From assembly GCF_003334335.1 (NCBI RefSeq), contig NZ_QOWQ01000017.1: a stretch of 64,000 nt of DNA. One strand, written 5' to 3'. The stretch comes from Escherichia coli. GTDB taxonomy: Bacteria; Pseudomonadota; Gammaproteobacteria; Enterobacterales; Enterobacteriaceae. A program made the position numbers and the translations under genes. Positions 45,039 through 56,231 of the stretch are shown in pieces; position 1 is the stretch's first letter, and each line of letters begins with the position of its first letter. The notes below the pieces were generated by a model that saw only the letters and a program-made list of their open reading frames with translations, had not been told where the DNA came from and did not search any database.

Positions 45039-46709
45039 ATGGATAATGCAGAACTCGCCATTGGTATCGATCTCGGTACTACCAATAGTTTAATTGCCGT
45101 CTGGAAAGACGGTGCCGCGCAATTAATTCCAAATAAGTTCGGTGAATATTTAACACCATCCATAATTAGCATGGATGAAAATAATCATATTTTAGTCGGA
45201 AAACCGGCTGTATCACGGCGTACTTCGCATCCGGATAAAACGGCAGCGTTATTTAAACGTGCAATGGGCAGTAATACCAACTGGCGGTTAGGCAGCGACA
45301 CATTTAACGCGCCAGAACTGTCCTCTTTGGTATTACGCTCATTAAAAGAAGATGCCGAAGAATTTCTGCAACGTCCGATTAAAGATGTGGTGATCTCCGT
45401 TCCGGCTTATTTCAGCGATGAACAACGCAAGCATACCCGTTTAGCAGCGGAGTTAGCCGGGTTAAATGCGGTACGCTTAATTAATGAACCCACAGCAGCT
45501 GCGATGGCGTATGGCCTGCATACCCAACAAAATACCCGTTCGCTGGTGTTTGATCTCGGTGGCGGCACGTTTGACGTTACGGTGCTTGAGTACGCCACGC
45601 CGGTGATTGAAGTTCACGCCTCCGCTGGCGACAACTTTCTTGGTGGCGAAGATTTTACCCATATGCTGGTCGATGAGGTTTTAAAACGCGCGGATGTCGC
45701 CAGGACCACGCTTAACGAGAGTGAACTGGCAGCCTTGTACGCCTGTGTGGAAGCGGCAAAATGTAGCAATCAATCGCCATTGCACATTCGCTGGCAGTAT
45801 CAGGAAGAAACGCGGGAATGCGAATTTTACGAGAACGAACTGGAAGATTTGTGGTTGCCGCTGCTCAATCGCTTGCGAGTGCCGATTGAACAGGCGTTGC
45901 GCGATGCGCGTCTGAAGCCGAGTCAAATCGACAGTCTGGTGCTGGTTGGCGGCGCGTCACAAATGCCGCTGGTGCAGCGAATCGCCGTGCGTCTGTTTGG
46001 CAAATTACCGTATCAAAGTTACGATCCGAGCACCATTGTCGCGCTGGGCGCAGCAATCCAGGCCGCCTGCCGCTTACGCAGTGAAGATATTGAAGAGGTA
46101 ATCCTCACTGATATTTGCCCTTACTCGTTGGGCGTTGAAGTTAACCGCCAGGGCGTTTCCGGCATTTTCTCGCCGATTATTGAACGAAACACCACTGTGC
46201 CCGTGTCGCGTGTAGAAACTTATTCAACCATGCACCCGGAACAGGATTCAATTACGGTTAACGTCTATCAGGGAGAAAACCACAAAGTTAAAAACAACAT
46301 TCTGGTGGAATCCTTCGATGTGCCGTTGAAGAAAACCGGGGCTTATCAGTCGATTGATATTCGCTTTAGTTATGATATCAACGGGTTGCTTGAAGTTGAC
46401 GTGCTTCTGGAAGACGGCAGCGTTAAGTCCAGAGTGATTAACCACAGCCCGGTAACATTGAGCGCGCAGCAGATTGAAGAGAGTCGGACGCGGTTATCCG
46501 CATTGAAAATTTATCCGCGCGATATGCTCATCAATCGCACCTTTAAAGCCAAACTGGAAGAGTTGTGGGCGCGGGCGCTGGGTGACGAGCGAGAAGAGAT
46601 CGGCCGGGTGATCACCGATTTTGATGCGGCGTTGCAGTCAAACGATATGGCCCGCGTGGATGAAGTTCGGCGGCGGGCGAGCGATTATTTAGCCATTGAG
46701 ATCCCATAA
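45039..46709 (+). CDS. hscC: Specialised Hsp70-family chaperone HscC
   Basis: 556 aa; Hsp70 signatures IGIDLGTTNS and DLGGGTFD. Confidence 0.95.
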   Translation: MDNAELAIGIDLGTTNSLIAVWKDGAAQLIPNKFGEYLTPSIISMDENNHILVGKPAVSRRTSHPDKTAALFKRAMGSNTNWRLGSDTFNAPELSSLVLRSLKEDAEEFLQRPIKDVVISVPAYFSDEQRKHTRLAAELAGLNAVRLINEPTAAAMAYGLHTQQNTRSLVFDLGGGTFDVTVLEYATPVIEVHASAGDNFLGGEDFTHMLVDEVLKRADVARTTLNESELAALYACVEAAKCSNQSPLHIRWQYQEETRECEFYENELEDLWLPLLNRLRVPIEQALRDARLKPSQIDSLVLVGGASQMPLVQRIAVRLFGKLPYQSYDPSTIVALGAAIQAACRLRSEDIEEVILTDICPYSLGVEVNRQGVSGIFSPIIERNTTVPVSRVETYSTMHPEQDSITVNVYQGENHKVKNNILVESFDVPLKKTGAYQSIDIRFSYDINGLLEVDVLLEDGSVKSRVINHSPVTLSAQQIEESRTRLSALKIYPRDMLINRTFKAKLEELWARALGDEREEIGRVITDFDAALQSNDMARVDEVRRRASDYLAIEIP

Positions 46710-46714
46710 ACACG

Positions 46715-46755
46715 GCTGCCGGATGCGGCGTAAACGCTGCATCCGGCATCGGCGC
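46715..46755. repeat. REP-like palindrome between convergent hscC and djlC
   Basis: gctgccggatgcggcgtaaacgctgcatccggcatcggc. Confidence 0.6.
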
Positions 46756-46768
46756 AAAAAACACATCG

Positions 46769-48220
46769 TCAGCTAAACAACATCGCGATTTTGCCGAGAG
46801 CATAACCTATCACCAGCACCGTTAAACTGATTTTGATAATGCTGGTAATGCTCTGTGGTTTTTCACCCTCATCATTTTTTTCTTCATGATTTTCAGGTGT
46901 TGGCTCATCGACATCTTCATCCTCCGGCTCGAGTTTCACTTTCGTCAAAAGCATCCGGGTGACAATGGCCTCTAATGGATGAGCATCTCCGCCTTCCAGC
47001 CTTGTATTAAGACGGGCCAGCATCTCTTGTTTCGGAAACGCTTCAAGTACTACCTGTTCCGCTACCCGATACAAATCCAGGAACGGTGAATCTTGCTCTG
47101 TCTCGCTACCGACTCTCGATTTCCACCACGCCCATGCTTTGCGCTTGAAGAATAACGACTCAATAAACGATTGACCTAACGGCGATAATTTTCCGCTATG
47201 TAAAATCTCCGCCCATAACAGCCGCGTCCGGGCGCTCTCACCAGGAACATATTTCAGCGGTTGACCTTGCGCATCTACCATGCTCCGCGCTTCGATAACC
47301 ATCACTAATAACGCGAAATAATCCGGGCAATGACGCTTGCTCCACTGCAACAACAAATTATCAGCTTGTATAGATGGGTAACTTTCCCAGTACGCGCAGA
47401 GATCGGCAAGCAGGCTTTCCCCCTCGCCGCAGTACAAACGTTGTGCACACAAGTAATACCGGGCATCTTCGCTTTCTGGTTCTTCCGTTTGCCACTGTTG
47501 AGCGACAGGAATGAGTTCCGCCATACCTGTTTGCACCGAGCTGTACCAGCGCAACAGTTTGCGATGTAACTTTGCATCATCAGGAATTAACCACGGACCT
47601 TCCATCGCCAAAAACGCAGTGACATAGTCAGGATGGTAACGGCAGCAACGTTCCAGCGCGAAGTAATACTCAACAGTCTGGTTCTGCAACGCAATGGGAT
47701 ATTCCAGAAGGCTAAGGAAATCGAAACAATCACCAGCCTGAATGGCCTCAAGAAAAGCCTCCCTTTCTTCCTCATCCATTCCTTCGCTGTCATTAAATGA
47801 ATGCCAGTTCAAACGCTCTGCCAGCAAAGAAGCACAATTTAATGAAAGATATCGCGCTTCTATGGCGATTGCACACAGCGGCCAGCGTAATTGATCGACA
47901 TCCTCCATGTTCCAGGTATTTAATTGCTGAATAAATTTCTGCCAGGCGGAAGGCTGAAAACGATCACTTTCTGAATCCAGTAATGTCCTGAATGCACGTA
48001 GTATTTCATGTTCAACGGCAGCATCTTTTTCTTCATCATCTGCTTCCTCGACAGGATTTACCGCCAGTCGCAGGGCCTCTTCATAGGCCTGGCGTAATGC
48101 TTTAAACCCTTGCGGATCGGTTTCGGGATGACACAACGGTAAGCGAGCAAGATAAGCCTGGCGGATAATGTCTATTTGCGTCGTGCTTTCAATTTCGAGG
48201 ATTTGCCAACATGTTTTCAT
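46769..48220 (-). CDS. djlC: J-domain co-chaperone DjlC with C-terminal hydrophobic tail
   Basis: 483 aa; N-terminal J-domain-like region with HPE at the HPD position; C-terminal [26 protein letters not shown]; 4-nt overlap with ybeU. Confidence 0.9.
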
Positions 48221-48924
48221 AGGTCGCTCACATCCTTAAGCGTTACCGGGCATTCAGACTGGACAGTTAATGGCTGCCAGGGAAGCGTGGCATAGAAACG
48301 ATCGCTTCCCGCTGCCAGCTCTTCGAACATACGACTCCCGGCGCTATCGTATTTGTACAGGGTTAGCGCCTCGCGTAGCGAAGTGTTGTCTTCGCACTGA
48401 GAAGATTGCCAGTAGAGACGTCCTAACGAATAGGCGGAAAAATAGTGCATCCAGCTGTGATAGTAATGGTGAGCTCGTACATAGACGCGCGATTGCAGCC
48501 ATAAACTCTCTTCTTCCGTCAGCCACTTGTTGAGCACACCGACCCGTGACAGAAACCCCATTCGAACATAATCCCAGGCTTTGATTCCCCCTTCCCCACA
48601 GCACATAGCGGTTTGGGCAACGAATTGGGTATAAATCAACCCTCTCTCCGAGCCACCAGCAATTAATGCTTTCCACTCTTCAGGGGAAGAGCGATGCCAT
48701 GTCAGATATAAGCCAGCTAAATCATTGGCATGACCATCATCAGTCATCTGATAAATAGTCTGAATTAAATCATCACGATTATTTATTCCCCAGGATGATG
48801 AGAGCTCGAATTCTTTTATCCCAGTATACATTTTTGGCGAGTCATGCGCGGGTTTGCAACCCTGATTAAGTATTTCCATGGGCGCAGAAAGCGCAAAAAG
48901 AAGATATTGTTCTTCCTTATTCAT
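48217..48924 (-). CDS. ybeU: DUF1266-family protein YbeU
   Basis: 235 aa; paralogue of ybeR in this window; translationally coupled to djlC. Confidence 0.85.
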
Positions 48925-49025
48925 TTGTTAATAATCCCTTAAGTGCATTAACTGACTACTTTTTTATTATTGATGAGTATAAACTTGACGCTTTCAAAAT
49001 AAAAAGAAAATCGAAGCATTCACAC

Positions 49026-49580
49026 ATGAATAAAAAATTAATGTATATATTCGCAATTTTTATAGTTGCAGCAATTACCTGTATTAGCCAACCCAAGAAA
49101 ACGACGTTGCGTGATAAAGCCATGGTGAATTATGCCTTTGATTATTTAAGCTCACCGGGCAGTCTTCCATTCACCACGGCAGCCACGGAGCTTTCCGCGA
49201 TTCATGGTCACTCAACGTCGCAATATCGCCTTGGAGAATTTTATCTTCATGGTAGCGACGGTAAACCACTGGATTATACACAGGCGAGATACTGGTATGA
49301 GCAATCAGCGGAACAGGAAAATCCACGCGCGCAAAGTAAACTGGGGTGGATCTACCTCAAAGGTCTGGGGGTCAAACCCGACACCCGTAAAGCAATTCTC
49401 TGGTATAAGGAAGCAGCTGAACAAGGGTATGCTCATGCTCAATATACTTTAGGTTTGATCTACAGAAATGGCTCAGGTATTAATGTTAACCATTATGAAT
49501 CTCAAAAATGGTTAAAACTGGCCGCCAAACAACATTACAAAAATGCGGAAAGATTACTTGCCGGGCTTCCCGCACATTAA
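49026..49580 (+). CDS. ybeT: Sel1-repeat protein YbeT with N-terminal hydrophobic segment
   Basis: 184 aa; repeats of the A-x-QG...AQ-x-x-LG-x-Y type; N-terminal [21 protein letters not shown]. Confidence 0.85.
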
Positions 49581-49589
49581 CGTCGACTG

Positions 49590-51017
49590 TCACCCGAACA
49601 GATGGAGTATTTTCCCTATCAAACCAGCAAAGATAAAAATATAGAAAATAATTTTAATGATGCCCAGACAGCCTGGCCCACCATCGTCAACGGGCATTGG
49701 CTGCGGTTGCGGCTCCGGTTCAACAGTTTGCTTCTCGGTAAAATTCGCCGCCTGAATTAATAATCGACGAATAATTAATGCTTCCAGTGGACAACGATTT
49801 TCTGCATCAAGGCGGCTCACAATCGGCATTAATGATTCTTCTGTAGGTTGGCAGGCCTGCACTAATTGTTTGGCAACTAGATATAATGGCCATAAGGTAT
49901 GTTCTGTATCACGCGTGAGTGAGATCCGCGGCTTACGTCCTTTGTGCAAAACCATCTCGACCAGTGAACGCCCCAGCGCAGAGAGTTTTTCATCGCTGAG
50001 TATTTCGTATAAATGAAAACGCGTACGGGCGCTGTCGCCGGGGACATAAAGTAGCGGTTTTCCCTGATCGTTAACCAGATCACGCGCTTCAATCATCATC
50101 ACCAGTAATGGGTAATAATCGACCCGATGCTGACGGCACCATTGCAACATTAAAGCATCCGCCTGGGTGGAGGGATACTCGCGCCAGTAGTCACAAAGTT
50201 CTGCCAACAGGCTTTCGCCTTCTCCACAATAGACGCGTTGCGCGTATTCATAATAAGGCGCATCTTCATTATCAGGTTCAGTTTCCCGCCATGACTGGGC
50301 GTAATCCAGAAGTTCGGGGATATCCAGGCGACCTGCGCTATACCAGCGGAGTAAATTTCTGTGCAGTTTTGCATCATCGGGGATAATCACTGCGCGATGT
50401 TGCGCTAAATACAATGTCAGCCATTGTGGATGCGATGACCAAATCCGAGCGAACATTTGGTAAAAATCGATGGTGTCATTTTGCACGGCAACGGGCAGAT
50501 GCAGAATGGTCTGGAAGTTAAAAACATTCCCCTTCGCAATGGCATATAAAAAGGATTCCAGTTCTTCTTCGTCTATTTCCCCGGTATTTTCCTCCTGTAA
50601 CCACCGCAATCTTTCTGCTAATAACACCACGCACTCGAAGGATAAATGGGCAGTGTTCATGGCGATTGTGCACAGCGACCAGCGTAATTCATCAATCTCC
50701 TCCATCGAGCAATAATTTAATTGCTGAATGAATCGCTGCCAGGCGGAGGGCAGAAAACGTTCACTATCAGAGGCAAGTAACGCACGAAAGGCGAGCAGAA
50801 TTTCATGTTCTGCTACCTCATATTCTTCTGGTTGCCAAACAGATTTAGCAGGCGACTGCGCAATCCGTAGCGCCTCCTCATACGCCTGACGAAGTTGTTT
50901 AAAACCCTGCGGATCGGTTTCTGGATGAAAGGACGGTAACAGCGCCAGATAAGCGCGGCGGATAATATCGACGTCAGTCGTTTCCTCTATATCGAGGATC
51001 TTCCAGCAATTTTTCAT
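49590..51017 (-). CDS. djlB: J-domain co-chaperone DjlB with C-terminal hydrophobic tail
   Basis: 475 aa; paralogue of djlC; HPE motif; C-terminal [26 protein letters not shown]; 4-nt overlap with ybeR. Confidence 0.9.
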
Positions 51018-51721
51018 AGGTCGCTCATATCCTTAAGCGTTTCCGGGCATGCAGAATAGTAAGCCAATGGTTGCCAGGACAAGGTAGGGTAATACGCATC
51101 ATCACTGGCAAATAATTGATAAAACATATCATTGCCGGAATCGTCGTATTCTTTACGCGCTAAGAATTCGCGTAATAAAGGCAGATGATCATCTTCGGGA
51201 GACTGCCAATATTGCCGACCAAAGGTATAACCGGCAAAGTATTGCCGCCAGTTACTATAATAACGTAGAGCCCGTAGATGAATGCGCGACTGGATCCATA
51301 GACTTTCTTCTTCGCTCAACCAGTTATTAAGTACGCCCATTCGGCTTAAAAAACCCATCCGGACATAATCCCAGGCTTTGATTCCCCCTTCGCCACAGCA
51401 TTCGGCGGTGCTGGCGACAAATTGCGCATAAGCCTGACCTTGCTCATTTAGTTCAGCAAGATAGTCACGCCATTCACATGGCGAATAACGAAACCAGCGG
51501 TGATAAAACCCTGCCAACCGAGCGGCATGACCGTTATCGATCATTCGGTGAATTGTGCGCAGCAGGTCATCACGGTCATCAATTCCCCATGAGGAAGAAA
51601 GGTCAAAAAAGCATGTACCTAAATACATTTTGGGTGATGAATGCGAAGGTAAACAGCATTCATTGCGTATTTCCATCGGAGTGGAAAGTGCAAACAATAT
51701 TTTTTGCGACTCCATGTCCAT
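51014..51721 (-). CDS. ybeR: DUF1266-family protein YbeR
   Basis: 235 aa; paralogue of ybeU (shared [20 protein letters not shown] block). Confidence 0.85.
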
Positions 51722-51878
51722 ATAATTTATCCTTAAATATTCATTAAATGAATATTAGCCGCATTGCGAGGCTCGTTTATTTATACTTTTCTGACGCGAC
51801 ATAATACGCATAAAATAAGGCTTACGCAAAAATGGAACACATAAAAATATAATATGTTTTATCTGCAACCATAAGGAA

Positions 51879-52862
51879 ATGATAATGATTTTCACGTCAA
51901 GTTGCTGCGATAATTTATCAATAGATGAGATTATCGAACGTGCTGAAAAAGGCGATTGCGAGGCTCAATATATTGTTGGGTTTTATTATAATCGCGATAG
52001 CGCAATTGATTCTCCGGACGACGAAAAAGCCTTTTACTGGCTGAAGCTGGCCGCTGAGCAAGGTCATTGTGAAGCACAGTATTCCTTAGGGCAAAAGTAT
52101 ACCGAGGATAAAAGCCGTCATAAAGATAATGAGCAAGCCATCTTCTGGCTGAAAAAAGCTGCCCTACAAGGCCATACTTTCGCTTCCAACGCCCTTGGCT
52201 GGACACTGGATCGTGGAGAAGCCCCCAATTATAAAGAAGCGGTTGTCTGGTATCAGATAGCCGCGGAGAGCGGAATGTCTTATGCGCAAAATAATCTTGG
52301 GTGGATGTACAGAAATGGCAACGGAGTCGCAAAAGACTATGCGCTGGCATTTTTCTGGTACAAACAAGCTGCATTACAAGGCCATAGTGACGCGCAAAAC
52401 AATCTGGCCGATCTTTATGAAGACGGAAAAGGCGTTGCTCAAAACAAGACACTCGCCGCATTCTGGTATTTGAAAAGCGCACAGCAGGGTAATCGGCACG
52501 CCCAGTTTCAAATTGCATGGGATTATAACGCTGGCGAAGGGGTGGACCAGGACTATAAGCAAGCGATGTACTGGTATCTGAAGGCTGCCGCTCAGGGGAG
52601 CGTCGGCGCTTACGTCAACATCGGTTATATGTATAAACACGGACAAGGCGTTGAGAAAGATTATCAGGCTGCCTTTGAATGGTTTACGAAAGCCGCTGAA
52701 TGCAATGACGCCACTGCCTGGTATAACCTGGCCATTATGTATCACTACGGAGAAGGAAGACCTGTCGATCTCCGACAGGCTCTCGACCTGTATCGTAAAG
52801 TTCAGTCATCCGGAACCAGAGATGTCAGTCAGGAAATTCGTGAGACTGAAGATTTACTGTAG
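51879..52862 (+). CDS. ybeQ: Sel1-repeat protein YbeQ
   Basis: 327 aa; about seven tandem Sel1-like repeats; no signal peptide. Confidence 0.85.
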   Translation: MIMIFTSSCCDNLSIDEIIERAEKGDCEAQYIVGFYYNRDSAIDSPDDEKAFYWLKLAAEQGHCEAQYSLGQKYTEDKSRHKDNEQAIFWLKKAALQGHTFASNALGWTLDRGEAPNYKEAVVWYQIAAESGMSYAQNNLGWMYRNGNGVAKDYALAFFWYKQAALQGHSDAQNNLADLYEDGKGVAQNKTLAAFWYLKSAQQGNRHAQFQIAWDYNAGEGVDQDYKQAMYWYLKAAAQGSVGAYVNIGYMYKHGQGVEKDYQAAFEWFTKAAECNDATAWYNLAIMYHYGEGRPVDLRQALDLYRKVQSSGTRDVSQEIRETEDLL

Positions 52863-52931
52863 AGATAAAAACAAGGGCCGGGGAATTTCATTCGGCCCAT
52901 ATTCTCTTTATTGCTGTGCGAAATCAGACTA

Positions 52932-53414
52932 TTACGGCTCAAACGGGCGTCTCTGGAACTGGTCATGACCACATTTCGGGCATAGCGTCAGCACTTCCGG
53001 TGTGTAGATCGGGAGATGGAAGTGACATTTCTCGCAGACCAGATTTCCCAGCCCGACCACTTCTCCGCTGTGATAAACCCCATGATGATTGAGGTCCTGG
53101 AAAACTTCGCGCCATTCAAGCTGCGTTTTATCGGTGATGTCTGCCAGCTCCTGCCACAAGCTTTCTTTAATCACCCGCATAAAGACGCTGTCAGATTCTT
53201 CTTTCAGGCTCTCTTCATAGCTCATGGCGAACTCTTCCAGGTCACGTCTGACAGCTCGCGTCAGCTCATCGACCTCGGTTCGCGTTAACTCCCCTGTTTT
53301 TATTACGCGCTCGCGCGCCTGTTCCACCAGTGCGTCGATATCACGTTCGCCATTGCGCAGGCGTTCGCTCAGTGACGCAACCAGTTCACGGTAATATTGA
53401 GCAACCTTGTTCAT
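52932..53414 (-). CDS. ybeL: DUF1451 protein YbeL with C-terminal zinc-ribbon
   Basis: 160 aa; C-terminal CEKC...CPKC motif. Confidence 0.85.
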   Translation of the reverse strand: MNKVAQYYRELVASLSERLRNGERDIDALVEQARERVIKTGELTRTEVDELTRAVRRDLEEFAMSYEESLKEESDSVFMRVIKESLWQELADITDKTQLEWREVFQDLNHHGVYHSGEVVGLGNLVCEKCHFHLPIYTPEVLTLCPKCGHDQFQRRPFEP

Positions 53415-53648
53415 CGTTTCATCTCCCGGGTCGTTAACTGACTATAATAATAGACGTTCTTTGTTCCTTGCTTTGCTAATACGCCCACAAACTCTGTAAA
53501 TTAATGTATGAATAATCCGGGCATCATTTCAACGTCGAGTGCGCGAAAGGCTGTTTTGACGCGGACGTTTGGGCTATGCTATGCGGATCTGAAAAACCAC
53601 CTCAACGCTACATTTGTAGCCGTATTGAAAACAGGACCACTGGCTGCC

Positions 53649-56231
53649 ATGCAAGAGCAATACCGCCCGGAAGAGATAGAATCCAAAGTACAGCTTCATT
53701 GGGATGAGAAGCGCACATTTGAAGTAACCGAAGACGAGAGCAAAGAGAAGTATTACTGCCTGTCTATGCTTCCCTATCCTTCTGGTCGACTACACATGGG
53801 CCACGTACGTAACTACACCATCGGTGACGTGATCGCCCGCTACCAGCGTATGCTGGGCAAAAACGTCCTGCAGCCGATCGGCTGGGACGCGTTTGGTCTG
53901 CCTGCGGAAGGCGCGGCGGTGAAAAACAACACCGCTCCGGCACCGTGGACGTACGACAACATCGCGTATATGAAAAACCAGCTCAAAATGCTGGGCTTTG
54001 GTTATGACTGGAGCCGCGAGCTGGCAACCTGTACGCCGGAATACTACCGTTGGGAACAGAAATTCTTCACCGAGCTGTATAAAAAAGGCCTGGTATATAA
54101 GAAGACTTCTGCGGTCAACTGGTGCCCGAACGACCAGACCGTACTGGCGAACGAACAAGTTATCGACGGCTGCTGCTGGCGCTGCGATACTAAAGTTGAA
54201 CGTAAAGAGATCCCGCAGTGGTTTATCAAAATCACTGCTTACGCTGACGAGCTGCTCAACGATCTGGATAAACTGGATCACTGGCCAGACACCGTTAAAA
54301 CCATGCAGCGTAACTGGATCGGTCGTTCCGAAGGCGTGGAGATCACCTTCAACGTTAACGACTATGACAACACGCTGACCGTTTACACTACCCGCCCGGA
54401 CACCTTTATGGGTTGTACCTACCTGGCGGTAGCTGCGGGTCATCCGCTGGCGCAGAAAGCGGCGGAAAATAATCCTGAACTGGCGGCCTTTATTGACGAA
54501 TGCCGTAACACCAAAGTTGCCGAAGCTGAAATGGCGACGATGGAGAAAAAAGGCGTCGATACTGGCTTTAAAGCGGTTCACCCATTAACGGGCGAAGAAA
54601 TTCCCGTTTGGGCAGCAAACTTCGTATTGATGGAGTACGGCACGGGCGCAGTTATGGCGGTACCGGGGCACGACCAGCGCGACTACGAGTTTGCCTCTAA
54701 ATACGGCCTGAACATCAAACCGGTTATCCTGGCAGCTGACGGCTCTGAGCCAGATCTTTCTCAGCAAGCCCTGACTGAAAAAGGCGTGCTGTTCAACTCT
54801 GGCGAGTTCAACGGTCTTGACCATGAAGCGGCCTTCAACGCCATCGCCGATAAACTGACTGCGATGGGCGTTGGCGAGCGTAAAGTGAACTACCGCCTGC
54901 GCGACTGGGGTGTTTCCCGTCAGCGTTACTGGGGCGCGCCGATTCCGATGGTGACGCTGGAAGACGGTACCGTAATGCCGACCCCGGACGACCAGCTGCC
55001 GGTGATCCTGCCGGAAGATGTGGTAATGGACGGCATTACCAGCCCGATTAAAGCAGATCCGGAGTGGGCGAAAACTACCGTTAACGGTATGCCAGCACTG
55101 CGTGAAACCGACACTTTCGACACCTTTATGGAGTCCTCCTGGTACTATGCGCGCTACACTTGCCCGCAGTACAAAGAAGGTATGCTGGATTCCGAAGCGG
55201 CTAACTACTGGCTGCCGGTGGATATCTACATTGGTGGTATTGAACACGCCATTATGCACCTGCTCTACTTCCGCTTCTTCCACAAACTGATGCGTGATGC
55301 AGGCATGGTGAACTCTGACGAACCAGCGAAACAGTTGCTGTGTCAGGGTATGGTGCTGGCAGATGCCTTCTACTATGTTGGCGAAAACGGCGAACGTAAC
55401 TGGGTTTCCCCGGTTGATGCTATCGTTGAACGTGACGAGAAAGGCCGTATCGTGAAAGCGAAAGATGCGGCAGGCCATGAACTGGTTTATACCGGCATGA
55501 GCAAAATGTCCAAGTCGAAGAACAACGGTATCGACCCGCAGGTGATGGTTGAACGTTACGGCGCGGACACCGTTCGTCTGTTTATGATGTTTGCTTCTCC
55601 GGCTGATATGACTCTCGAATGGCAGGAATCCGGTGTGGAAGGGGCTAACCGCTTCCTGAAACGTGTCTGGAAACTGGTTTACGAGCACACAGCAAAAGGT
55701 GATGTTGCGGCACTGAACGTTGATGCGCTGACTGAAAATCAGAAAGCGCTGCGTCGCGATGTGCATAAAACGATCGCTAAAGTGACCGATGATATCGGCC
55801 GTCGTCAGACCTTCAACACCGCAATTGCGGCGATTATGGAGCTGATGAACAAACTGGCGAAAGCACCAACCGATGGCGAGCAGGATCGCGCTCTGATGCA
55901 GGAAGCACTGCTGGCCGTTGTCCGTATGCTTAACCCGTTCACCCCGCACATCTGCTTCACGCTGTGGCAGGAACTGAAAGGCGAAGGCGATATCGACAAC
56001 GCGCCGTGGCCGGTTGCTGACGAAAAAGCGATGGTGGAAGACTCCACGCTGGTCGTGGTGCAGGTTAACGGTAAAGTCCGTGCCAAAATCACCGTTCCGG
56101 TGGACGCAACGGAAGAACAGGTTCGCGAACGTGCTGGCCAGGAACATCTGGTAGCAAAATATCTTGATGGCGTTACTGTACGTAAAGTGATTTACGTACC
56201 AGGTAAACTCCTCAATCTGGTCGTTGGCTAA
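53649..56231 (+). CDS. leuS: Leucyl-tRNA synthetase
   Basis: 860 aa from [21 protein letters not shown]...; HMGH and KMSKS motifs; the ORF track's upstream start was trimmed. Confidence 0.96.

What the first reader, a model, noticed from the sequence alone, without database searches (positions are those of the whole stretch)
46769..51017. Both J-proteins carry HPE instead of the canonical HPD, plus a C-terminal membrane anchor
Aligning the DjlC and DjlB N-termini to a canonical J domain (YYEILGV...AYKRLAMKYHPDRN...) puts HPE at the invariant HPD position: [13 protein letters not shown] in DjlC and [13 protein letters not shown] in DjlB. The Asp of HPD is normally required to stimulate Hsp70 ATPase activity, so conservation of Glu in both paralogues suggests a tuned or altered interaction, perhaps specific to HscC. 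Each protein also ends in a roughly 25-residue hydrophobic segment, predicting a tail-anchored topology.
Basis: seen in the sequence. Interest (0 to 1): 0.5.

Follow-up and report, generated by a model that had tools for sequence, protein, structure and literature searches.

The report
HPE J-domains of tail-anchored DjlB/DjlC
The two E. coli co-chaperones DjlC and DjlB do carry His-Pro-Glu where almost all J-domains have His-Pro-Asp, and each ends in a single membrane-anchoring helix, but both facts are already published for these proteins, so the finding is correct and ordinary.

Summary
The window is E. coli K-12-type DNA carrying hscC-djlC-ybeU-ybeT-djlB-ybeR-ybeQ. DjlC (46769-48220, minus) and DjlB (49590-51017, minus) have H31-P32-E33. 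A profile-to-PDB alignment, a MAFFT alignment with E. coli DnaJ, CbpA, DjlA and HscB, and AlphaFold models all put this tripeptide in the loop between J-domain helices II and III, column for column with HPD. Glu is invariant in 112 of 112 N-terminally complete close homologues. In more distant relatives the motif is HPE, NPE or SPE, and never HPD. HscC keeps the DnaK residues that receive the Asp (R167, Q378) but lacks the D211 loop and D477. Each protein has one hydrophobic helix at the extreme C-terminus, and 87 of 92 full-length homologues do too. None of this is new. HPE in DjlB and DjlC is stated in a 2023 PNAS survey and a 2026 review. DjlC-specific stimulation of HscC was reported in 2002, and DjlC was shown to be a tail-anchored protein in 2018. 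Less documented side observations are the NPE and SPE variants and a translationally coupled DUF1266 partner gene.

The parts
46769..48220 (-). djlC (ybeV): 483-aa class C J-domain protein, tail-anchored co-chaperone of HscC
   Evidence: ORF. 100% identical to annotated djlC 'co-chaperone DjlC'.
48056..48220 (-). DjlC J-domain, residues 1-55: helix I 4-8, helix II 16-29, HPE loop 30-35, helix III 36-54. No helix IV is predicted.
   Evidence: AlphaFold models with pLDDT above 90 over this stretch, Foldseek hits to J-domains, profile hits to solved J-domains, Pfam DnaJ residues 4-47.
48122..48130 (-). DjlC HPE tripeptide (H31 P32 E33), codons CAT CCC GAA
   Evidence: Aligned to HPD of DnaJ, CbpA, DjlA and HscB.
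46940..48007 (-). DjlC all-alpha middle domain, residues about 72-427 (Pfam PF27158 DjlB_C_2nd), presumed client or partner-binding module
   Evidence: Precomputed PF27158 on homologues. About 20 helices in the model. Foldseek against PDB gives only weak TPR or solenoid-like hits, E at least 0.05.
46772..46852 (-). DjlC C-terminal hydrophobic segment, residues 457-483 ([27 protein letters not shown]): the tail anchor. It follows a disordered acidic linker at 434-456.
   Evidence: Kyte-Doolittle 1.99 at 464-482. Model helix 458-482. Experimental status from the literature.
49590..51017 (-). djlB (ybeS): 475-aa paralogue of DjlC, 49% identical
50853..51017 (-). DjlB J-domain, residues 1-55
   Evidence: Pfam DnaJ residues 4-47, i-E 0.0017. 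Alignments A1 and A2. MAFFT with E. coli J-domains.
50919..50927 (-). DjlB HPE tripeptide, codons CAT CCA GAA
49593..49673 (-). DjlB C-terminal hydrophobic segment, residues 449-475 ([27 protein letters not shown]): predicted tail anchor
   Evidence: Kyte-Doolittle 2.39 at 449-467. No direct experiment on DjlB was found in the papers read.
45039..46709 (+). hscC: the specialised Hsp70 that is the cognate partner, convergent with djlC
   Evidence: It keeps R146, Q341, L356 and P388 (DnaK R167, Q378, L391, P419). It lacks the D211 loop and has S444 and N448 for D477 and D481.
48217..48924 (-). ybeU (DUF1266), whose stop overlaps the djlC start by 4 nt (ATGA)
   Evidence: The same DUF1266/J-protein overlap occurs in L006, L009 and L014.
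51014..51721 (-). ybeR (DUF1266, 59% identical to YbeU), whose stop overlaps the djlB start by 4 nt
49026..49580 (+). ybeT, Sel1/TPR-repeat protein lying between the two modules
51879..52862 (+). ybeQ, Sel1-family repeat protein flanking the djlB-ybeR module. RefSeq starts it 6 bases further in than the ORF listed here.

Best explanation
DjlC and DjlB are paralogous class C J-domain co-chaperones. A single C-terminal helix holds each in the inner membrane, and the J-domain and a large helical domain face the cytoplasm. The three-helix J-domain docks on ATP-bound HscC at the NBD/linker/SBD-beta interface. Its HPE loop triggers ATP hydrolysis, so HscC is recruited to, and clamps onto, clients at the membrane. 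Glu33 most likely does the job of DnaJ Asp35 by bonding the conserved Arg146 and Gln341 of HscC. The extra methylene is accommodated by a remodelled interface. In the J-domain, helix II has lost the basic residues K26 and R27 (now L24 and A25/L), and the II-III loop is at least 7 residues shorter. In HscC, the D211 loop is gone and D477 is S or T. Together these changes make the pair orthogonal to DnaK/DnaJ. Shown here: the motif position, its strict conservation, the fold, the C-terminal helix, the genomic coupling to HscC-type Hsp70s, and which DnaK contact residues HscC keeps or loses. Taken from the literature: ATPase stimulation, DjlC membrane insertion, and the Cd2+ phenotype. Inferred: the Glu33-Arg146 contact, and client binding by the helical domain.
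For: HPE occupies the HPD column and the loop between helices II and III. E33 is invariant in 112/112 close homologues. No Asp occurs in the distant relatives listed, which have HPE, NPE or SPE, and both Glu codons are used, which argues for selection for Glu. HscC and nine further HscC-type Hsp70s keep R167, Q378 and P419, delete the D211 loop, and have S or T at D477. The DnaJ-DnaK contacts are as listed in PMC8215388. 9 of 9 distant loci (GC 29-62%) place the J-protein next to or within 4 kb of an HscC-type Hsp70 that is 43-60% identical to HscC and 33-36% identical to DnaK. There is a single C-terminal hydrophobic helix. [quoted passage not shown]
Against: No complex model or mutagenesis supports the Glu33-Arg146 contact. 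The receptor residues are unchanged from DnaK, so nothing in HscC obviously demands Glu. D481N, a tempting co-variation, fails in one of ten HscC-type proteins (L014 has Asp). NPE and SPE variants show that the His can be lost in this class, which a simple DnaJ-like trigger would not predict. DjlB activity on HscC and DjlB membrane insertion are assumed by homology only. The primary paper (Kluck 2002) could not be read here.
Confidence: 0.8

Rival explanations
1. HPE is a functionally neutral, conservative Asp-to-Glu change fixed once in the ancestor of the DjlB/DjlC class. Specificity for HscC would then come entirely from other surface residues.
For: HscC keeps the same Arg and Gln that receive Asp35 in DnaK. 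The review wording is only that HPE is 'tolerated'. Helix II and the II-III loop differ strongly and could carry all the specificity.
Against: Asp is one third-position change away from GAA or GAG, and both Glu codons are in use. Yet no Asp was seen in 112 close homologues or in the distant relatives examined, whose hosts span 29-62% GC. A neutral site would have drifted.
Confidence: 0.15
2. The N-terminal domain is a degenerate J-like domain, comparable to Pam16/Tim16 or type IV J-proteins. It would bind HscC without stimulating its ATPase.
For: Single-sequence Pfam matches are weak. Helix IV is absent from the models. NPE and SPE variants lack the His.
Against: DjlC is reported to stimulate the HscC ATPase (Kluck 2002, via PMC8215388, and PMC13254874). 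The loop and helices II and III are under strict conservation.
Confidence: 0.04
3. The HPE/HPD correspondence is an alignment artefact, and the true catalytic motif lies elsewhere, for example at the HPD tripeptide at DjlC residues 196-198.
For: DjlC does contain HPD at 196-198.
Against: DjlB has HPQ at that position, and the site is not conserved in A1. It lies inside the helical middle domain. Three independent methods place residues 31-33 at the HPD position.
Confidence: 0.01

Closest known systems
E. coli K-12 DjlC (YbeV) and DjlB (YbeS), co-chaperones of HscC
   Same: They are the same genes. The region is 100% identical to annotated djlC and djlB. The HPE motif, HscC partnership and tail anchor are as described in the literature.
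   Different: Nothing differs. The window carries the reference alleles.
Canonical class A/B J-domains (E. coli DnaJ, CbpA; Pfam PF00226)
   Same: They share the helix II - loop - helix III hairpin with H-P-acidic in the loop. R22, Y25, K48 and K51 have equivalents in DjlC (R20, Y23, K40, R43).
   Different: DjlB and DjlC have Glu for Asp, L24 and A25/L for K26 and R27, a II-III loop shorter by at least 7 residues, and no predicted helix IV. They have no G/F or client-binding beta domains, and they partner HscC rather than DnaK.
DjlA, the other membrane-anchored E. coli J-protein
   Same: It is also a class C J-protein held at the inner membrane with a cytoplasmic J-domain.
   Different: DjlA's hydrophobic stretch is at the N-terminus (visible at the start of the sequence printed). 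That this stretch is its membrane anchor is from my own knowledge. Its J-domain is C-terminal, carries HPD, and works with DnaK. DjlB and DjlC have the reverse layout.
HscB-HscA, the other dedicated Hsp70/J pair of E. coli
   Same: It is a specialised, mutually exclusive Hsp70/J-protein pair encoded side by side. HscA also lacks the D211 loop.
   Different: HscB keeps HPD, is soluble, and delivers IscU. HscA keeps D481.
Other HPE J-domains catalogued by Malinverni et al. 2023 (about 2,900, roughly 1% of J-domains)
   Same: They show the same Asp-to-Glu replacement. DjlB and DjlC are named as examples.
   Different: Many of the others are eukaryotic and fused to Na/Ca exchanger domains. The bacterial DjlB/C class carries the DjlB_C_2nd helical domain and sits beside HscC.

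Membership tests
J-domain (Pfam PF00226 DnaJ) | Significant profile similarity to J-domains | tested here: met
   The full-length single sequences are weak (i-E 0.036 and 0.0017). All 20 family N-termini score at or below 1e-3, best 4.7e-8. The family profile hits 37 PDB chains, J-domains by their names, with best E 3.7e-6.
J-domain (Pfam PF00226 DnaJ) | Antiparallel helix II / helix III hairpin with the motif in the connecting loop | tested here: met
   The models show H16-29, loop 30-35 and H36-54 at pLDDT around 90. Foldseek top hits are nearly all J-domains, with 5nro_B at TM 0.67 and rmsd 2.0 A.
J-domain (Pfam PF00226 DnaJ) | Invariant His-Pro-Asp tripeptide | tested here: not met
   The tripeptide is His-Pro-Glu in both proteins and in all 112 close homologues. 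The literature regards this as the one tolerated variant.
J-domain (Pfam PF00226 DnaJ) | Helix IV completing the four-helix domain | tested here: not met
   The Pfam match stops at model position 51 of 63. The models show a disordered stretch after helix III, with residues 58-69 below pLDDT 50.
J-domain (Pfam PF00226 DnaJ) | Stimulates the ATPase of a cognate Hsp70 | not testable with these tools
   Reported for DjlC with HscC (Kluck 2002, as cited in PMC8215388). Assumed for DjlB. The primary paper is not held.
Tail-anchored inner-membrane protein | Single transmembrane segment within about 30 residues of the C-terminus | tested here: met
   DjlC 464-482 scores KD 1.99 and DjlB 449-467 scores KD 2.39. 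The model has a helix at 458-482. 87/92 homologues show the same.
Tail-anchored inner-membrane protein | No N-terminal signal sequence or other hydrophobic segment | tested here: met
   The next-best 19-aa windows score 1.36 (DjlC) and 1.53 (DjlB), both starting at residue 115 inside the folded helical domain. The N-terminus is the J-domain.
Tail-anchored inner-membrane protein | Membrane localisation that depends on the C-terminal segment, inserted post-translationally | not testable with these tools
   Published for DjlC: the TMD is required and sufficient, with SRP, FtsY, YidC and DnaK involved (PMC6794478 citing Peschke 2018). No experiment on DjlB was found.
DjlB/DjlC family (Pfam PF27158 DjlB_C_2nd) partnered with HscC | DjlB_C_2nd helical domain after the J-domain | tested here: met
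   PF27158 is precomputed on nearly all homologues and is named. The window proteins are the annotated djlC and djlB.
DjlB/DjlC family (Pfam PF27158 DjlB_C_2nd) partnered with HscC | Encoded beside an HscC-type Hsp70 | tested here: met
   In the window, hscC is convergent with djlC, 59 bp apart. The same holds in 9/9 distant loci.

The most novel reading that the evidence does not exclude
In the whole class of J-domains that serve HscC-type Hsp70s, Glu may be the indispensable trigger residue rather than His. Clades with NPE or SPE exist, but none with an Asp. This would imply an ATPase-trigger geometry on HscC that differs from the DnaJ-DnaK paradigm. In the membrane-anchored branch, a translationally coupled DUF1266 protein (YbeU/YbeR) may be an unrecognised third component of the machine.
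Probability: 0.25. Interest if true: 0.45.

Novelty: already known. Interest (0 to 1): 0.15.

Why it matters
[quoted passage not shown] A natural and strictly conserved HPE class is a useful handle on how J-domains trigger ATP hydrolysis and how orthogonal Hsp70/J pairs avoid cross-talk. That point has already been made in the literature for DjlB, DjlC and HscC, so the finding adds no new knowledge. Its value here is as a correct annotation. The physiological clients of the HscC system, beyond its link to Cd2+ and UV sensitivity, remain unknown. The conserved DUF1266 and Sel1-repeat neighbours may be the best lead to them.

Tried and rejected
1. Single-sequence phmmer of the DjlC N-terminus against PDB found only designed helical repeats and no J-domain. 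A family profile was needed.
2. Foldseek of the full-length model against PDB gave no significant hit. All hits had E of at least 0.05 and TM around 0.2, and were generic TPR or solenoid proteins such as NlpI, LbcA and APC/C subunits. The middle domain therefore has no solved relative.
3. NCBIfam has no model matching DjlB or DjlC. PADLOC gave nothing for HscC, DjlB, DjlC, YbeU or YbeR, and only repeat noise for YbeT and YbeQ, so an anti-phage defence reading has no support.
4. The internal HPD at DjlC 196-198 was considered as an alternative motif and rejected. DjlB has HPQ there, the site is not conserved, and it lies in the helical domain.
5. I looked for a compensating change in HscC. R167 and Q378 are unchanged. 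D481N looked like a co-variation, but one HscC-type protein paired with an HPE J-protein keeps Asp (L014), so I do not claim it.
6. A wide search with HscC returned only Escherichia and Salmonella sequences and added no diversity.
7. Kluck et al. 2002 could not be read. Its results are cited second-hand from reviews.
Full report
**What is there.** ORF listing of window 44000-54000 gives a 556-aa Hsp70 at 45039-46709(+). It also gives a 483-aa ORF at 46769-48220(-) and a 475-aa ORF at 49590-51017(-). Each of these two is preceded by a 235-aa ORF whose stop overlaps its start. Sel1/TPR-repeat ORFs lie on the other strand. Megablast of 44900-53500 against complete E. coli genomes gives 100% identity to strain WG5. 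The RefSeq annotation there is hscC, djlC, ybeU (DUF1266), ybeT, djlB, ybeR (DUF1266), ybeQ, ybeL and leuS. The finding therefore concerns the reference alleles of two named E. coli genes.

**The motif.** H-P-E is at residues 31-33. The codons are CAT CCC GAA at window 48122-48130 and CAT CCA GAA at 50919-50927.

**Is this the HPD position?**
- Single-sequence evidence is weak. Pfam DnaJ matches residues 4-47 at i-E 0.036 (DjlC) and 0.0017 (DjlB). phmmer of the N-terminus against PDB finds no J-domain.
- A 29-sequence family alignment (A1) used as a profile against PDB returns J-domains as 18 of its top 20 hits. In every printed alignment, including E. coli DnaJ 1bqz, HPE is matched column for column to HPD.
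- A J-only profile (A2) gives 37 PDB hits with best E 3.7e-6. All 20 members match Pfam DnaJ at or below 1e-3.
- I fetched the real E. coli dnaK, dnaJ, djlA, hscA, hscB and cbpA genes. MAFFT again places HPE under the HPD of DnaJ, CbpA, DjlA and HscB. The loop between the motif and helix III is shorter by at least 7 residues.
- AlphaFold models of full-length DjlC (pLDDT 84) and of residues 1-62 (pLDDT 85) show helix 4-8, helix 16-29, loop 30-35 (CHPETD) and helix 36-54. No helix IV is predicted.
- Foldseek of the 62-residue model against PDB returns almost only J-domains. These include the DnaJ J-domain bound to DnaK (5nro_B) at TM 0.67 and rmsd 2.0 A over 56 columns.

**Conservation.**
- All 112 N-terminally complete homologues from the first search carry HPE. 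They come from Escherichia, Salmonella, Citrobacter and Enterobacter and reach down to 41% identity. The eight sequences without it are N-terminally truncated fragments.
- In A1, the residues H31, P32, E33, D35, P36, Q37, G38 and F39 are invariant.
- A profile search of 1.84 billion representatives finds 6,706 relatives at E up to 1e-3. Among the 146 new sequences in the best 150, 109 have HPE in the first 80 residues.
- The rest are N-terminally truncated fragments or carry NPE (8 sequences), SPE (2) or PPE (1, P0183) in a PE-DP-GF context.
- The single HPD found is an internal fragment that corresponds to DjlC residue 196.
- Eleven genes for which I hold DNA use both GAA and GAG for the Glu. 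Asp is one third-position change away, so its complete absence indicates purifying selection.
- The second refutation condition, orthologues with HPD, is not met.

**Link to HscC.**
- I looked up nine distant family members. They are 485-1278 aa long and their contigs have GC of 29-62%.
- Every one lies next to, or within 4 kb of, a 560-567-aa Hsp70. These Hsp70s are 43-60% identical to HscC and only 33-36% identical to DnaK.
- The DnaJ-DnaK contacts come from PMC8215388. D35 bonds R167 and Q378. H33 bonds the L391 backbone and P34 contacts P419. The basic residues R22, K26, R27, K48 and K51 contact E206, D211, E217 and D477.
- HscC keeps R146, Q341, L356, P388, E184 and E191. It lacks the D211 loop and has S444 for D477 and N448 for D481.
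- Across ten HscC-type proteins, R167, Q378 and P419 are invariant. D477 is always S or T. D481 is N in nine and D in one.
- On the J side, R20, Y23, K40 and R43 are conserved, while K26 and R27 become L24 and A25/L.
- The acidic trigger residue therefore meets the same Arg/Gln receptor as in DnaK. The docking surface around it has changed on both partners. This fits an orthogonal pair, but it does not by itself explain why Glu is required.

**Tail anchor.**
- The best Kyte-Doolittle windows are DjlC 464-482 (1.99) and DjlB 449-467 (2.39).
- Nothing else exceeds 1.6.
- 87 of 92 full-length homologues have their best window within 12 residues of the C-terminus.
- The model shows a helix at 458-482 after a disordered acidic linker at 434-456.
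- Many of the roughly 900-aa relatives have one to three hydrophobic helices near the C-terminus. The TPR-rich 950-1280-aa relatives have none. Membrane anchoring is therefore a feature of one branch, whereas HPE is family-wide.

**What is already published.**
- Malinverni et al. 2023 counted 2,921 HPE J-domains, about 1% of the total, and named DjlB and DjlC (PMC10410713).
- Mayer 2021 summarises that only DjlC stimulates the HscC ATPase, and that both proteins are tail-anchored, with insertion shown for DjlC. It also summarises that hscC and djlB djlC mutants are Cd2+-sensitive (PMC8215388).
- DjlC is described as a bona fide tail-anchored protein whose TMD is required and sufficient for targeting (PMC6794478).
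- A 2026 preprint treats DjlC-type J-domains as the cognate class of HscC.
- Pfam already has a DjlB_C_2nd family.
- The primary 2002 paper is not held.

**Verdict.** Interest is scored at 0.15. The following are recorded as side leads and are not claimed as discoveries:
- the NPE and SPE variants;
- the conserved 4-nt-overlapping DUF1266 gene;
- the duplicated module;
- the patchy presence of the locus in E. coli.

Noticed in passing
window 48217-48924(-) ybeU and 51014-51721(-) ybeR; also L006 2202-2909, L009 7306-8004, L014 1172-1885: A DUF1266 gene sits immediately upstream of the J-protein gene, and its stop overlaps the J-protein start by 4 nt (ATGA). This holds in both E. coli modules and in three distant loci that encode roughly 900-aa membrane-anchored relatives. 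It suggests a translationally coupled partner protein. A full-text search found only one unrelated paper that mentions DUF1266.
   Followed up: partly
P0214, P0222, P0239, P0240, P0242, P0243, P0258, P0265 (NPE); P0252, P0253 (SPE); loci L011 2303-5788 and L013 2887-5400: Some distant members of the DjlB/C-type J-domain class have Asn or Ser in place of the His of HPE but keep the Pro-Glu. They still sit beside an intact HscC-type Hsp70. In this class the Glu is therefore more conserved than the His, which is the opposite of what the HPD paradigm would predict.
   Followed up: partly
window 46769-48924 and 49590-51721: The ybeU-djlC and ybeR-djlB pairs are an old duplication. DjlC and DjlB are 49% identical, YbeU and YbeR are 59% identical, and the DNA is about 66% identical over roughly 1.4 kb. 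Each pair is followed on the other strand by a Sel1-repeat gene, ybeT or ybeQ.
   Followed up: yes
window 44900-53500: The locus is not universal in E. coli. Only 3,657 of 5,426 complete genomes carry at least 80% of it. Some lack djlB-ybeR-ybeQ (for example hit H8), and some lack everything between rihA and ybeL (hit H9).
   Followed up: no
window 46940-48007(-), DjlC residues about 72-427: The large all-helical middle domain (Pfam DjlB_C_2nd) is modelled confidently. It has no significant structural match in PDB, only weak TPR or solenoid-like hits such as NlpI and LbcA. Its ligand is unknown.
   Followed up: partly
window 46853-46921(-), DjlC residues 434-456: The linker just before the DjlC tail anchor is strongly acidic. 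The 30 residues 429-458 have net charge -10, and residues 434-456 are modelled as disordered. This is the opposite of the usual positive-inside flank of a membrane helix. The equivalent DjlB linker has net charge -4 and is Pro-rich.
   Followed up: no
L015 1-4099: In one metagenomic locus, the HscC-type Hsp70 and its 1278-aa TPR-rich J-protein lie directly downstream of a TIR/WD40 protein and a DEAD_2 helicase. This is a single case. PADLOC gave no defence-system match for the E. coli proteins.
   Followed up: no
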